Assembly: GCF_016026235.1 (NCBI RefSeq)
Contig: NZ_CP065613.1
Origin: Escherichia coli
GTDB lineage: Bacteria; Pseudomonadota; Gammaproteobacteria; Enterobacterales; Enterobacteriaceae
Length of the DNA stretch: 64,000 nucleotides
Reading direction: 5' to 3' (one strand)
The notes below the pieces were generated by a model. The model had not been told where the DNA came from. It worked only from the letters and a program-made list of their open reading frames with translations, and made no database searches. The position numbers were made by a program, and so were the translations under genes. This document shows, piece after piece, positions 2,590 to 40,000 of this stretch (the first letter of the stretch is position 1; each line of letters begins with the position of its first letter).

Positions 2590-2745
2590 GTCTGGCGTAG
2601 GCCGGATAAGGCGTTTACGCCGCATCCGGCACTTGTGCGCTGATGCCTGATGCGACGCTGACGCGTCTTATCATGCCTACAAATCTGTACGCGAACCGTA
2701 GGCCGAATAAGACGTTTACGCCGCATCCGGCCTGAAAATTCTTAA
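2590..2745. repeat. REP/BIME cluster (repetitive extragenic palindromes)
   Basis: Motifs gtaggccggataaggcgtttacgccgcatccggc and gcctgatgcgacgctgacgcgtcttatcatgcctaca, recurring throughout the window. Confidence 0.85.
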
Positions 2746-2794
2746 ATCAATCTTCGCCGGGGGCCATGCGCTCCCGCTGTTGTGGAGGTTACCC

Positions 2795-3562
2795 ATGTGC
2801 GAATTGCTCGGGATGAGCGCCAACGTCCCTACCGATATCTGCTTTAGTTTCACCGGTCTGGTGCAGCGTGGTGGTGGAACCGGGCCACATAAAGATGGCT
2901 GGGGCATTACCTTTTACGAAGGTAAAGGCTGTCGCACATTTAAAGATCCACAACCCAGCTTTAATTCCCCCATCGCCAAACTTGTCCAGGACTACCCGAT
3001 AAAATCCTGTTCGGTGGTGGCTCATATTCGCCAGGCCAATCGGGGCGAGGTGGCGCTGGAAAATACTCACCCGTTTACCCGTGAGTTATGGGGGCGTAAC
3101 TGGACTTATGCCCATAACGGACAACTGACGGGCTACAAATCACTGGAAACCGGCAACTTCCGCCCGGTCGGTGAAACCGATAGCGAAAAAGCCTTCTGCT
3201 GGCTCCTGCATAAATTAACGCAGCGTTACCCGCGCACACCGGGCAACATGGCGGCAGTGTTTAAATATATCGCCTCACTGGCGGATGAACTGCGGCAGAA
3301 GGGCGTTTTCAACATGCTGCTTTCTGACGGGCGCTATGTGATGGCGTATTGCTCGACTAATTTACACTGGATCACCCGCCGCGCGCCGTTTGGCGTGGCA
3401 ACGCTGCTGGATCAGGATGTGGAAATCGACTTCAGCTCGCAGACCACACCGAATGATGTGGTCACGGTGATTGCAACACAGCCGCTGACGGGCAATGAAA
3501 CCTGGCAAAAGATTATGCCAGGCGAATGGCGCTTATTTTGCCTCGGGGAGCGTGTAGTTTGA
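2795..3562 (+). CDS. yafJ: class II glutamine amidotransferase-like protein
   Basis: Start ATG 2795 preceded by GGAGG at 2784-2788; product [19 protein letters not shown]... (N-terminal Cys nucleophile). Confidence 0.9.
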
Positions 3563-4273
3563 TGCCAGTTGTGGCTGCACAACTTCGTGGCTTAACGGCT
3601 TGCTGACCACGTAACGACCATTGACCACAGAAACGGTCGGTGGCTTACGGGTTTGCTCAAAGTAGTCGTAACCCAGCTTCAGTTGCTCCCAGAAGTCCTT
3701 AAAGTTGGAATATTTATGGCGCTTCATATTGGCGTCGGTCATGCGGAACGGGTAAATACTCACTTGCACGCTCGGCTGACCAAACACCAGCGCACCAGTA
3801 ACGAACTGGAAGATCTCATCAATACCCTGATTGGTCATTGCGTAGCAGCCGATGGAAACACAATCGCCGTGGATCATCAGGTATTTCCCTTCATAACCAT
3901 GCGCACGGTCATAGGCATTGGGGAAACCAATATTAATCGCTTTGTAGTAACGGCTGTCTGGTTTTAACTGATTACGCTGGACGCTATAAAACCCTTCCGG
4001 GCTTTTGAAATCGCCCTGACGCTGTTTTGGCCCTAAGCCGCCGGAATATTTACAGATTTTATAACTGTCGAGCAGCTGATATTGCTCGCCCATTTTGACG
4101 TAGAGATCGAGCGTACGTTCTTCCTTGAAGATCTGGATGTAGACAGGGGATCCCATCAACTGCTGCTTATACTCTTTGCTCACTGGCGTGGTCGAGCTAC
4201 TGCTGCCCAGCAAACCGGCAAACGAAACGCACGGGATCAACAACATCGCAAGAATTAATGCGATTTTACGCAT
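3533..4273 (-). CDS. yafK: L,D-transpeptidase family periplasmic protein
   Basis: 246-aa ORF with signal peptide [19 protein letters not shown] and YkuD-like catalytic region (HGDCVSIGC). Confidence 0.9.
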
Positions 4274-4428
4274 ACTGCTTATTCCTTGATAAAACGGTTA
4301 CACACGCCAGGACGGCAAAATAGATCCCAAATCGGAATAGTCTGGATTTGGAAGGCTCACATTATCACCAAAAGAGTTTTACGCAAGCCTGTCGGCGCAG
4401 GGTTTACAAATTTCATCGGCAGCGTGCT

Positions 4429-4707
4429 TTACCCAAAGAGCGCCGCGTGAGTTCCAGTTCTCTCAAATCGTAAAAGTTTATCGGTAAGTTTGTAAATCAG
4501 GATCCAGTCCGGTTCGACATGAGCATCGCGATAACCTTTCCATGAACCTTGCAGCGGGTGGTCTTTATAAACAGCTGGAAGCGGTAAAGCATTATTGATA
4601 AGAAGCGTCATAAGATATTTCAATTTATTCATATACTTATGACGCTTTTGTGCAAGTTTTACATCCTTTGAAAATTGTCCCGAGTATTCAATATCCCTTT
4701 GAATCAT
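4429..4707 (-). CDS. yafQ: type II toxin YafQ (RelE/ParE-fold mRNA interferase)
   Basis: 92-aa ORF MIQRDIEYSGQFSKDVKLAQKRHK... immediately downstream of dinJ. Confidence 0.9.
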   Translation of the reverse strand: MIQRDIEYSGQFSKDVKLAQKRHKYMNKLKYLMTLLINNALPLPAVYKDHPLQGSWKGYRDAHVEPDWILIYKLTDKLLRFERTGTHAALFG

Positions 4708-4709
4708 AT

Positions 4710-37661: not shown

Positions 37662-37702
37662 CGTAGGCCGGATAAGACGCGTTTAGCGTCGCATCCGGCA
37701 TT
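37662..37702. repeat. REP element
   Basis: gtaggccggataagacgcgtttagcgtcgcatccggc. Confidence 0.75.
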
Positions 37703-37714
37703 TATTAGCGCTCA

Positions 37715-38557
37715 TCAGCATTTCTGCACAGTATTTAACAACTTCTCTAAATTCTGGTACATCGCGCTATTAATATCACTATTCTGCCAGCCTTCCACAT
37801 TAAACGTTAATTGCCAGCTACCATTGCACTGGTTGCGCAGAACAATATCACTTTCCAGTCGGTTGCGAACATATTTATAATAGGTTGTCATTGTCATATT
37901 ATGCGCTGACAATAAATTATCGAGTTTGTCTTTCCCTGGTGCGAGGGTTTGTGAAAGTAACGGTGCGGAATTATTTTCTTTTCCAGAACTAAGATGAAAT
38001 ATTTTTATTCTTGGACTATTAACGGATTCTTTTACCAGCTGCGGGGCGTCAGGTGTATTTTTTAAGTGTGAATAACCCACGGTCGAGCCAATAAATATAA
38101 CAGCCGCGGTCAAGGCTAACCCCATCAGTCCTTTATGTTTTTTTCTAACAGGCACAGGCGGTGTTGTCGAAGATATCTCTTCTGGCGCTGTTTCTTTTAT
38201 CTGGTCGGTAATAATCAGCGCTTCCGCAGGCGATGACTCCGGCAAAGACACATACTCTTTATTGCATAAGTAACCTTTCTTCGGAATTGTTTTAATAATG
38301 TTCTGTTGTTTGCCATCATCGTCGATAGCAACGCGCAACGCATGAATCGCCGTCGGCAGGCTGTTACCGCCGACAATGCGGTTCTTCCATACTTCGGCAC
38401 ATAAATAAGATCGCGATAAAACTACATCGGCATTTTTTGCTAATGTTTCCAGCAAAATAAAATGGTATTCGCCGAGACGACGTGTTTCACCCGTTTCGCA
38501 ATGTATTAAGGCATTAAGCGACGGGTCCATCCGCCAGTTGTTGATAATAATACTCAT
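37715..38557 (-). CDS. lafZ: membrane-anchored ToxR/CadC-like winged-helix transcriptional regulator (probable)
   Basis: AT-rich ORF; OmpR/ToxR-type DNA-binding region then a TM segment (LMGLALTAAVIFIGSTV) and periplasmic domain; start taken at MSIIINNWRMD (ORF-track start 38614). Confidence 0.55.
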   Translation of the reverse strand: MSIIINNWRMDPSLNALIHCETGETRRLGEYHFILLETLAKNADVVLSRSYLCAEVWKNRIVGGNSLPTAIHALRVAIDDDGKQQNIIKTIPKKGYLCNKEYVSLPESSPAEALIITDQIKETAPEEISSTTPPVPVRKKHKGLMGLALTAAVIFIGSTVGYSHLKNTPDAPQLVKESVNSPRIKIFHLSSGKENNSAPLLSQTLAPGKDKLDNLLSAHNMTMTTYYKYVRNRLESDIVLRNQCNGSWQLTFNVEGWQNSDINSAMYQNLEKLLNTVQKC

Positions 38558-39042
38558 AGTTGAGTTTACCTTAGCAAGGGATAAATGTTCCTGATAGTGC
38601 TTTGCATAAAGCACAGTCTTATACGTCCCTGAGAAGATGATTTTTCTGCGTGATAATTAATATTTTATGGTAATAGGATTATTCTTAATCACTATATGGC
38701 GTGGAAATGTAACGAAATGACAGGACAGGTACAATAGCCAAATGTGTACTATTTGCAACGCAATGTAAATTTTGGCATCAGTACATTGAGAAGAAAACGC
38801 ATTAATTGATGGTAATCTTAACTATATCAAGCGTTTGATAAAGACATATTTTGATACCTGGCCATGTGGCAGATATTGCTAATAATCTTTTTATCTGAAT
38901 TTAAACTCTGCTTTTTTTTAGCTAAAAGTGGCATCAGATAATACGTAGCGAAAATTTTTTCATAGCGATTTTAAGTTTGCTCCTGAGGTGTCGTTTTTAC
39001 AGGGTATCGAAACGAAAACGATTAATCCCAAGGAGCAGTATC

Positions 39043-39957
39043 ATGTTATCTATTAACACCAATAACGCCTCAATGGCCGCCGTTAATGCAATCAGCAAAA
39101 GCAGCTCTTCTCTGTCTACATCTATGGAACGCCTGGCGACAGGTAACCGGATTAACTCTTCTGCCGATGACGCCGCAGGCAAACAAATTGCTAACCGTCT
39201 GACTGCACAGTCCAGCGGTATGGGCGTGGCGCTGAGCAACATCAATGATGCCACCGCGATGCTGCAAACCGCTGACAGCATGTTCGACGAAATGTCTGAC
39301 GTGCTGGGCCGTATGAAAGACCTGTCAACTCAGGCAGCGAACGGCACCTACAGCGACGACGATCTGCAGGCGATGCAGGACGAATACGACGAACTGGGTC
39401 AGCAGATGTCTGACATGCTGCAAAATACCACTTACGGCGGTACCAACCTGTTCGGTGTTTCCGGTACCAGCAACACCGGTACTGACGGTCTGTTCCAGAG
39501 CGCGGTAACTTTCCAGGTGGGCGCGGAATCTTCCGACACCATGACCGTGAATATTTCAAGCCAGCTGAATACCCTGGTGACGGATCTTTCTGCTATCAGC
39601 AACTCCTTCAGTGCGGATCAGGCAGACACCACGGGTACTGCAGGCGTGTCTGGCGGTACTGAGCTGACTGCGTCTGGCTCGGCTAACCAGATGATCACCA
39701 GCATTTCTACCGCGATGGATGACGTGTCGCAGATCCAGTCCAAACTGGGTGCGTCTATTAACCGTCTGAACGACACTGCCAACAACCTGACCAGCATGCA
39801 GGACAACACCGAAGTCGCTATCGGTAACATCATGGATACCGACTACGCGACGGAAGCGTCCAACATGACCAAACAGCAGGTGCTGATGCAAACCGGCATC
39901 ACCATGCTGAAACAGTCCAACAGCATGTCCAGCATGGTTTCCAGCCTGCTGCAGTAA
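39043..39957 (+). CDS. lafA: lateral flagellin
   Basis: Start ATG 39043 after AGGAG; conserved flagellin N-terminus (MLSINTNNASMAAVNAISKSSSSL) and C-terminus (LMQTGITMLKQSNSMSSMVSSLLQ). Confidence 0.9.
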   Translation: MLSINTNNASMAAVNAISKSSSSLSTSMERLATGNRINSSADDAAGKQIANRLTAQSSGMGVALSNINDATAMLQTADSMFDEMSDVLGRMKDLSTQAANGTYSDDDLQAMQDEYDELGQQMSDMLQNTTYGGTNLFGVSGTSNTGTDGLFQSAVTFQVGAESSDTMTVNISSQLNTLVTDLSAISNSFSADQADTTGTAGVSGGTELTASGSANQMITSISTAMDDVSQIQSKLGASINRLNDTANNLTSMQDNTEVAIGNIMDTDYATEASNMTKQQVLMQTGITMLKQSNSMSSMVSSLLQ

Positions 39958-39967
39958 TGGCGGACTT

Positions 39968-40000
39968 GCCGGATGCGGCGTAAACGCCTTATTCGGCCTA
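39968..40000. repeat. REP element downstream of lafA
   Basis: ccggatgcggcgtaaacgccttattcggcctac. Confidence 0.75.

What the first reader, a model, noticed from the sequence alone, without database searches (positions are those of the whole stretch)
2590..40000. Dense REP/BIME punctuation of the locus, with a RayT transposase at its border
REP units occupy at least eleven intergenic gaps, including several inside the lateral flagellar operons and a three-copy ~98-bp tandem BIME at 33785-34060. The REP-associated tyrosine transposase gene rayT sits at the left border, itself flanked by REP clusters. Such dense REP seeding implies long residence of the island in an E. coli-type genome, and a REP-like unit sits exactly where the hook gene is missing.
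Basis: partly seen in the sequence, partly recalled or inferred. Interest (0 to 1): 0.4.

Follow-up and report, generated by a model that had tools for sequence, protein, structure and literature searches.

The report
REP repeats crowd E. coli Flag-2
The lateral-flagella (Flag-2) gene cluster of this E. coli strain and the neighbouring rayT gene are unusually crowded with ordinary E. coli REP/BIME palindromic repeats. One of those repeats marks the exact joint of a small deletion that removed the hook gene. All the elements are of well-known kinds.

Summary
E. coli Y/Z1/Z2-type REP units lie in exactly 11 intergenic gaps between 2597 and 40001 (23-24 units). None lies elsewhere in the 64-kb window. 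The tandem BIME is real (33773-34062, period 97, 3.0 copies). rayT (6105-6602) is intact and has BIMEs on both sides.

The density is about 5-10 times background. Seven 50-kb samples of the nearest genome hold 21 units in 14 loci per 350 kb.

The hook-gene claim holds and can be sharpened. Most of lfgE was lost in a 1244-bp deletion between two identical 9-mers (TATCAGGCC). One 9-mer is the 3' arm of a Z1 REP in the flgD-flgE gap. The other lies in lfgE codons near its 3' end. Only 1 of about 1280 Flag-2-positive complete E. coli genomes shares this allele.

The common lfhA-lafU deletion (K-12 type) has no REP at its ends.

"Long residence" is supported. Other Escherichia species carry REPs in the same gaps. 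Citrobacter Flag-2, at the same chromosomal site, has no rayT and essentially no REPs.

Everything here is a known kind of element. Interest is modest.

The parts
2597..2731 (.). BIME in the gmhA(lpcA)-yafJ gap: Y, Z2 (ATCATGCC variant), Y. It starts 7 nt after the gmhA stop codon.
   Evidence: Rfam naRNA4 hit at 2600-2677
5926..6009 (.). BIME upstream of rayT: Y, Z2. The GTAG of the Y unit contains the yafL stop codon TAG (5927-5929).
   Evidence: naRNA4 hit at 5929-6006
6105..6602 (+). rayT (yafM, tnpA-REP): an intact 165-aa REP-associated tyrosine transposase.
   Evidence: NF047646 at 176 bits against a cut-off of 80. Aligns over 164 residues with PDB 4ER8. RefSeq names the same gene rayT in FDAARGOS_943, K-12, SMS-3-5 and 042.
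6614..6765 (.). BIME cluster downstream of rayT, before the 3' end of lfhA: Z1, truncated Y (6653-6665), Z2, Y.
   Evidence: Its content differs between strains: 1 unit in SMS-3-5, 4 in K-12, 8 in 042.
13197..13280 (.). BIME (Z2, Y) in the divergent lfiM / lafK promoter gap. It is not downstream of any gene.
   Evidence: Absent in SMS-3-5, present in 042.
21846..21944 (.). BIME (Y, Z1) in the variable cargo region. It ends 10 nt from the stop codon of the glycosyltransferase gene.
29905..30005 (+). Scar of the lfgE (hook gene) deletion. It consists of 15 nt of spacer, a Z1 REP hairpin (29920-29946) and the last 66 coding nt of lfgE plus its stop codon (29938-30005). The joint lies within TATCAGGCC at 29938-29946.
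   Evidence: parent alleles in SMS-3-5 and 118UI; only FlgE residues 379-400 remain; 1 genome holds the window's joined flgD-REP-flgF arrangement; 1278 others match its two sides as separate places, and the 39 of them listed all show flgE; hairpin kept
30753..30787 (+). Single Y REP inside the flg operon, 9 nt after the flgF stop codon.
   Evidence: Present in all Escherichia-type loci. The same gap is 33 nt and REP-free in Citrobacter.
31616..31651 (-). Degenerate Z2-like REP, 8 nt after the flgG stop codon.
33773..34062 (.). Tandem BIME array in the flgJ-flgK gap: 3.0 copies of a 97-bp Z2 + inverted-Y unit.
   Evidence: TRF; two naRNA4 hits. Copy number is 4 in the 99.9%-identical strain FDAARGOS_943, 2.5 in SMS-3-5, 1 in 042 and 6 in Escherichia sp. 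MOD1-EC7003. One unit folds as a long hairpin at -26.5 kcal/mol, z = -3.5.
37663..37700 (+). Single Z2 REP, 14 nt from the stop codon of lafZ (minus strand).
39967..40001 (-). Single Y REP, 9 nt after the lafA (lateral flagellin) stop codon.

Best explanation
This is the ordinary E. coli REP system seen at high local density.

What is shown:
- rayT with its flanking BIMEs lies between yafL and lfhA, next to the Flag-2 lateral-flagella cluster.
- Host-type Y, Z1 and Z2 REPs fill eight gaps inside Flag-2 and three gaps around rayT.
- The REPs were gained in the Escherichia lineage after it split from Citrobacter.
- They are still turning over: occupancy and BIME copy number differ between strains, even between 99.9%-identical ones.
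- Nine of the 11 loci start or end within 16 nt of a stop codon.
- One REP provided a deletion end. In an ancestor carrying a Z1/Y BIME between flgD and lfgE, the Z1 3' arm TATCAGGCC was joined to the identical 9-mer in lfgE codons for N-Y-Q-A-N. This removed 1244 bp: the Y REP and lfgE codons 1 to about 378.
- Together with a frameshifted glycosyltransferase and an ISEc60 insertion, this shows Flag-2 is decaying in this lineage.

What is inferred:
- From published work on other genes, REPs that close to a stop codon act as mRNA 3'-end stabilisers and dampen translation of the upstream gene.
- The deletion most likely arose by replication slippage or another RecA-independent microhomology joining, helped by the REP hairpin.
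For: REP positions and types. Tandem array. RayT.

Enrichment over background. The 50-kb sample that covers the primary flagellar cluster from flhDC to flhBAE has 0 REPs.

Strain polymorphism. For the flgD/flgE gap: 1026 of 1280 Flag-2-positive genomes match at least 80% of a 351-nt query spanning the REP-bearing gap, and the matched spans vary in length.

Same gaps occupied in E. whittamii, Escherichia sp. E1V33 and MOD1-EC7003; short, REP-free gaps in eight Citrobacter loci.

Citrobacter youngae and C. sedlakii have fadE-gmhA-yafJ-dpaA-yafL-lfhA in the same order, with no rayT and 0 REPs in 22 kb.

Deletion joint and both parental sequences. Rarity of the allele. Gene integrity. ISEc60.

Distances to stop codons were read. 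The rule that a REP within 15 nt of a stop codon stalls ribosomes comes from Liang et al. 2015, as cited in PMC12306157.
Against: The background estimate rests on 350 kb (7%) of one related genome and on my own REP caller. That caller finds about half the density expected from the published K-12 count, so the fold-enrichment is uncertain (about 4-10 times).

The region was chosen after the REPs had been seen.

No expression data exist for this locus, so every regulatory role is extrapolated.

The slippage mechanism cannot be told apart from other microhomology-joining routes by sequence alone.
Confidence: 0.85

Rival explanations
1. The REP crowding is caused by the neighbouring rayT. RayT would act mainly on DNA near its own gene, so its surroundings, Flag-2 included, become a nursery for new REP/BIME copies.
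For: Escherichia has rayT at the border and a REP-rich locus. Citrobacter has the same synteny, no rayT there, and 0 REPs in 22 kb plus 0-1 per 20 kb further in.

All four BIMEs nearest rayT carry the same Z2 variant (ATCATGCC). REPs deeper in Flag-2 carry ATCAGGCC. The variant makes up 1 of 4 exact matches to either Z 3'-arm motif in the 350-kb background.
Against: This is a single phylogenetic contrast. Citrobacter may simply be REP-poor genome-wide, which was not tested.

There are no REPs in the 18 kb to the right of Flag-2 or in the 12 kb to the left of gmhA, so there is no smooth decline with distance.

Transposition by RayT in vivo has never been shown; only cleavage and strand transfer in vitro are reported (PMC8266576).
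Confidence: 0.15
2. The lfgE deletion was made by RayT itself, through cleavage at the REP and strand transfer, rather than by replication slippage.
For: The joint lies at the foot of a REP hairpin, next to the GTAG motif that RayT needs (PMC8266576). An intact rayT lies 23 kb away.
Against: The joint is a plain 9-bp direct-repeat crossover, which is the signature of slippage or microhomology joining.

RayT cleaves at CT dinucleotides 5' or 3' of the hairpin (PMC8266576), not inside the stem, and the second site in lfgE is not a REP.

The product has GTTG in place of GTAG.
Confidence: 0.07
3. The REP density is not special. It only reflects the many short gaps between same-direction genes in a long operon cluster, or chance clustering.
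For: REPs are known to cluster and to prefer 3' ends of genes. My background sample is small.
Against: The primary flagellar operons of the same genome have the same architecture and hold 0 REPs in 50 kb.

The orthologous Citrobacter operons have the same gaps without REPs.

None of the seven 50-kb samples reaches half the count seen here.
Confidence: 0.08
4. The REPs arrived ready-made with the island from a donor, so they say nothing about how long it has resided in Escherichia.
For: Two Pseudocitrobacter genomes carry Flag-2 loci 91-92% identical in DNA to the window, with E. coli-type REPs in the same gaps. REPs can therefore travel with the locus.
Against: The REPs are the host's own Y/Z families, which occur genome-wide.

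The locus sits at the same chromosomal site in Citrobacter without REPs.

Occupancy differs strain by strain, so gains and losses happened in place.
Confidence: 0.05

Closest known systems
E. coli REP/BIME elements (Y, Z1 and Z2 units; BIME-1 and BIME-2) with the rayT (yafM, tnpA-REP) 'REPtron'
   Same: The sequences match the Y/Z1/Z2 consensus at 91-100% identity. The hairpins are bulged and carry GTAG tails. Units alternate in orientation with short linkers and form tandem arrays. rayT has BIMEs on both sides, and its protein is a close match to the crystallised K-12 protein 4ER8.
   Different: Nothing differs in kind. Only the local density differs (about 4-10 times background). Placement is also unusual: several units lie inside operons and one BIME lies in a divergent promoter gap.
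REP325 / naRNA4 (Rfam RF02564), the yjdM-yjdN tandem BIME of K-12
   Same: The 97-bp Z2/Y units at 33845-34019, 2600-2677, 5929-6006 and 13200-13277 score 75-84 bits against a gathering score of 59.5.
   Different: The location is different. Transcription and HU binding are unknown here. The Rfam match probably just reflects shared BIME-2 sequence.
Flag-2 locus of E. coli 042 and the lfhA-lafU en bloc deletion of K-12 (Ren et al. 2005, from my own knowledge; De Maayer et al. 2020, PMC6993521)
   Same: The gene order is the same from lfhA to lafU, between rayT and dinB. The K-12 joint maps to window 8491/45516 with a 3-bp GAT overlap.
   Different: This strain lacks lfgE through a separate 1244-bp deletion that ends in a REP. 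It also has an ISEc60 insertion and a frameshift. A search of the Flag-2 comparative paper PMC6993521 found no 'palindrom' and no 'rayT'; its 23 word-start hits for 'REP' were not individually read.
REP-ended rearrangements, such as the REP join points of tandem duplications in Salmonella (Shyamala et al. 1990, recalled from memory and not checked here)
   Same: A REP arm serves as the short homology at a rearrangement joint.
   Different: Here only one partner is a REP. The other is a coding 9-mer that matches the REP arm by chance.

Membership tests
E. coli REP (Y/Z1/Z2) | Imperfect palindrome of about 30-37 nt matching the Y, Z1 or Z2 consensus and forming a bulged hairpin | tested here: met
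   blastn-short gives 91-100% identity over 24-37 nt for 23 units. The sequences were also read directly. The Z1 unit folds at -8.5 kcal/mol with a bulge, z = -4.2.
E. coli REP (Y/Z1/Z2) | Conserved GTAG tetranucleotide at the foot of the hairpin | tested here: met
   13 units carry the exact motif ATCMGGCCTAC, and most others have GTAG with an arm mismatch. The exception is the unit at the lfgE scar, which has GTTG.
E. coli REP (Y/Z1/Z2) | Extragenic location and many copies per genome | tested here: met
   All 11 loci lie between genes. A 47-nt REP-containing query finds a median of 40 places per genome, which is the tool's reporting limit, in 5425 of 5426 genomes.
BIME | REPs in alternating orientation separated by short linkers, often in tandem | tested here: met
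   Six of the 11 loci contain pairs in alternating orientation. The array at 33773-34062 has 3.0 copies of a 97-bp unit.
RayT / TnpA-REP (group 2 RAYT) | Sequence membership above the curated threshold | tested here: met
   NF047646 equivalog at 176.3 bits against a cut-off of 80. E = 3.9e-110 to PDB 4ER8.
RayT / TnpA-REP (group 2 RAYT) | HUH motif and catalytic tyrosine present | tested here: inconclusive
   LPEHMHCIW and DYIYINPVKH are identical to the 4ER8 sequence in the alignment. Which residues are catalytic is taken from my knowledge of the family and was not tested here.
RayT / TnpA-REP (group 2 RAYT) | Gene flanked by cognate REP/BIME on both sides | tested here: met
   BIMEs at 5926-6009 and 6614-6765.
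RayT / TnpA-REP (group 2 RAYT) | Cleaves and joins single-stranded REP DNA | not testable with these tools
   Shown in vitro for the K-12 protein only (PMC8266576).
naRNA4 (RF02564) | Score above the Rfam gathering threshold | tested here: met
   Five hits of 75-84 bits against a gathering score of 59.5.
naRNA4 (RF02564) | Transcribed and acts with HU on the nucleoid | not testable with these tools
   No expression data. I do not claim membership in the functional sense.
Flag-2 lateral flagellar locus | Full conserved gene set from lfhA to lafU, in order | tested here: not met
   46 of the 49 SMS-3-5 CDS from lfhA to lafU give a full-length single tblastn hit, but lfgE is reduced to residues 379-400. 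The glycosyltransferase is split into two frames and the lysine methylase is split by ISEc60. This is a decayed member.

The most novel reading that the evidence does not exclude
RayT works mainly near its own gene. The rayT neighbourhood would then be a source region from which REP/BIME copies are seeded into nearby gaps. On this reading the REP-rich Escherichia Flag-2 and the REP-free, rayT-less Citrobacter Flag-2 at the same site form a natural before-and-after pair. That pair would be the first genomic footprint of RayT activity in vivo.
Probability: 0.15. Interest if true: 0.6.

Novelty: already known. Interest (0 to 1): 0.27.

Why it matters
REPs, BIMEs, RayT and Flag-2 are all described, so nothing here is a new kind of element.

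Three points have some value:
- A clean, dated contrast. The same locus at the same site is REP-rich with rayT in Escherichia and REP-free without rayT in Citrobacter. It could be used to study how and when REPs spread, which is still unknown.
- A worked example of a REP arm acting as the short homology for a gene-killing deletion.
- A warning for annotation. Flag-2 in this lineage lacks its hook gene and cannot build a flagellum, even though 46 of the 49 SMS-3-5 genes from lfhA to lafU are intact.

Tried and rejected
I replaced it with blastn-short.
- A filter requiring an exact motif in both arms discarded clearly real units and was dropped.
- 20-nt 'Z2' hits of 32 bits with no arm motif recur next to annotated IS1 transposase genes. 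I treated them as false positives and excluded them from the background.
- I first thought some loci were missing from the script machine. In fact each file holds several records.
- A literature search for REP-ended deletions returned nothing relevant.
- I looked for further common partial-deletion forms of Flag-2 among 5426 genomes. In 60 rows sampled at even steps down the ranking, only the intact form and the lfhA-lafU form recurred, plus one oddity, H100.
- I did not scan metagenomes for the deletion joint, because the answer would not change the verdict.

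
Full report
**What the window is.** The window is E. coli chromosome. The gene order is fadE, gmhA(lpcA), yafJ, dpaA, yafQ/dinJ, yafL, rayT, then the Flag-2 lateral-flagella cluster from lfhA (6788) to lafU (46282), then dinB and beyond. The closest complete genome is E. coli FDAARGOS_943, at 99.9% identity but with different IS insertions. Other Flag-2-positive E. coli are about 94-96% identical across the locus.

**The observation.** I called REPs with blastn-short against the Y, Z1 and Z2 consensus sequences and checked each call by reading the gap sequences. 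There are 23 full or nearly full units plus one truncated Y, in exactly 11 intergenic gaps between 2597 and 40001. None lies in 1-2590 or in 40002-64000.
- A 13-mer REP core gives 32 hits against 4.1 expected by chance.
- The tandem array is 33773-34062, period 97, 3.0 copies, 97% matches. Rfam labels it and three other BIMEs as naRNA4. I read this as shared BIME-2 sequence, not as evidence of function.
- rayT (6105-6602) is intact. It passes the NCBIfam equivalog model and aligns over 164 residues with the crystallised K-12 protein 4ER8.
- BIMEs lie on both sides of rayT. The GTAG of the upstream one even supplies the yafL stop codon.

**Is the density unusual?** Seven 50-kb samples spaced around the FDAARGOS_943 chromosome hold 21 units in 14 loci per 350 kb. 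No sample exceeds 6 units or 5 loci. Scaled to 37.4 kb, that predicts about 2 units in 1.5 loci, against 23-24 units in 11 loci observed. The published figure of about 600 REPs in K-12 (PMC8266576) predicts about 4.8 units. My caller may therefore be about half as sensitive as curated counts, and the enrichment lies between about 4 and 10 times. The sample that covers the primary flagellar cluster from flhDC to flhBAE has no REP at all, so flagellar operon layout does not attract REPs by itself.

**The missing hook gene.** SMS-3-5 and 042 have lfgE (1203 bp) directly between flgD and flgF, with no REP. Strain 118UI has a Z1/inverted-Y BIME in the flgD-lfgE gap and an intact lfgE.
- The window reads flgD stop, 15 nt, the Z1 hairpin, then the last 66 coding nt of lfgE and its stop codon.
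- The Z1 3' arm (GCTTATCAGGCCTAC) and lfgE codons N-Y-Q-A-N (AACTATCAGGCCAAC) share the 9-mer TATCAGGCC. The window sequence switches from one parent to the other inside that 9-mer.
- The loss is 1244 bp in 118UI coordinates. Only FlgE residues 379-400 remain.
- The hairpin survives, but its GTAG has become GTTG. Published in-vitro work says any GTAG change abolishes binding and cleavage by the E. coli enzyme (PMC8266576).
- Only FDAARGOS_943 holds the window's joined flgD-REP-flgF arrangement. The other 1278 genomes that match the query do so as two separate places, and the 39 of them listed all show flgE under the match.
- 1026 of 1280 Flag-2-positive genomes match at least 80% of a 351-nt query spanning the REP-bearing gap, and the matched spans vary in length.
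- I infer replication slippage or another microhomology joining, helped by the hairpin. A RayT-made deletion is possible but fits the joint less well.

**Other deletions.** The K-12 type deletion joins window 8491 to 45516 with a 3-bp GAT overlap, inside the lfhA and lafU coding sequences. The nearest REPs are 1.7 kb and 5.5 kb away. In 60 records sampled at even steps down the ranking, two forms recur among the 5426 genomes: the intact locus (1261 genomes) and this en bloc deletion. REPs therefore explain the rare lfgE loss and not the common loss of the locus.

**Turnover and age.** REP occupancy differs gap by gap among the window, SMS-3-5, 042 and K-12. The flgJ-flgK array has 1, 2.5, 3 and 4 copies in four E. 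coli strains, and 4 copies in the strain that is 99.9% identical to the window.
- A scan of one genome per species with the FlgG-like protein returned Flag-2 loci from E. whittamii, two unnamed Escherichia species and two Pseudocitrobacter. These are 88-94% identical in DNA to the window and carry REPs in the same gaps.
- Eight Citrobacter loci are about 76% identical in DNA (three of them measured), with FlgG 91-95% identical. Their gaps are short and they hold 0-1 REP per 20 kb.
- Citrobacter youngae and C. sedlakii have fadE-gmhA-yafJ-dpaA-yafL-lfhA in the same order. They have no rayT between yafL and lfhA and no REP in 22 kb.
- The locus is therefore ancestral at this site. The REPs, and rayT at this position, are Escherichia-lineage features older than the splits among Escherichia species.

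**Likely roles (inferred).** Nine of the 11 loci begin or end within 16 nt of a stop codon: those of gmhA, yafL, rayT, the glycosyltransferase, flgD, flgF, flgG, lafZ and lafA. Published work reports that REPs within 15 nt of a stop codon stall ribosomes and lower the yield of the upstream protein, and that REPs protect mRNA 3' ends (Liang et al. 2015 and earlier papers, as cited in PMC12306157). Nothing here tests that for Flag-2.

**A lead I could not settle.** The four BIMEs nearest rayT all carry a Z2 variant, ATCATGCC. REPs deeper in Flag-2 carry ATCAGGCC. Together with the Citrobacter contrast, this hints that rayT seeds its own neighbourhood. But it is a single phylogenetic contrast, the variant also occurs elsewhere, and no REPs lie in the 18 kb beyond Flag-2.

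**Verdict.** The elements are all of known kinds. A search of the comparative paper on enterobacterial Flag-2 loci found no 'palindrom' and no 'rayT'; its 23 word-start hits for 'REP' were not individually read (PMC6993521). The local density and the REP-ended lfgE deletion are small additions rather than discoveries.

Noticed in passing
window 25092-26386: An ISEc60 (IS4-like) copy interrupts the Flag-2 lysine-N-methylase gene. FDAARGOS_943 lacks this copy but has ISEc60 in the glycosyltransferase and in flgH, plus an IS5 at window position 21027. The transposase frame in the window copy appears broken into ORFs 24926-25411 and 25439-26128.
   Followed up: partly
window 21955-24392 (around 22740-22755): The Flag-2 glycosyltransferase, 814 aa in SMS-3-5, is split across two reading frames here. 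This is either a frameshift or a sequencing error.
   Followed up: partly
window 47402-47410: The yafN-yafO toxin-antitoxin pair, present between dinB and yafP in K-12, SMS-3-5 and 042, is absent here. dinB runs directly into yafP.
   Followed up: no
window 6105-6602: RayT is only 93% identical to the SMS-3-5 protein. The neighbouring proteins yafJ, dpaA, yafL and lfhA are 98-100% identical. RayT seems to evolve faster than its neighbours.
   Followed up: no
L010 and L013 (Pseudocitrobacter vendiensis and P. faecalis): Their Flag-2 loci are 91-92% identical in DNA to E. coli and carry E. coli-type REPs in the same gaps. This suggests transfer of the locus, REPs included, from an Escherichia lineage, or a mislabelled assembly.
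   Followed up: partly
window 37413-37714; L009 37387-38037: In strain 042 a RelE/ParE toxin-antitoxin pair occupies the lafW-lafZ gap. The window has a 302-bp gap with a REP there, and SMS-3-5 has a gap of about 60 bp.
   Followed up: no
window 63035-63233 and 56602-56674: Rfam finds an IS009 small-RNA match (188 bits) and a tRNA. Both are unrelated to the finding.
   Followed up: no
L005-L008, L090-L092 (FDAARGOS_943): The nearest genome is full of IS1, IS600, IS5 and ISEc60 copies and of pseudogenes such as cheZ, araF, cadC and maeA. The pattern resembles Shigella or enteroinvasive E. coli genome decay.
   Followed up: no
window 2000-47000 versus L002 and L009: Flag-2 DNA is only about 94-96% identical between E. 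coli strains, while the flanking genes are about 97-98% identical.
   Followed up: no
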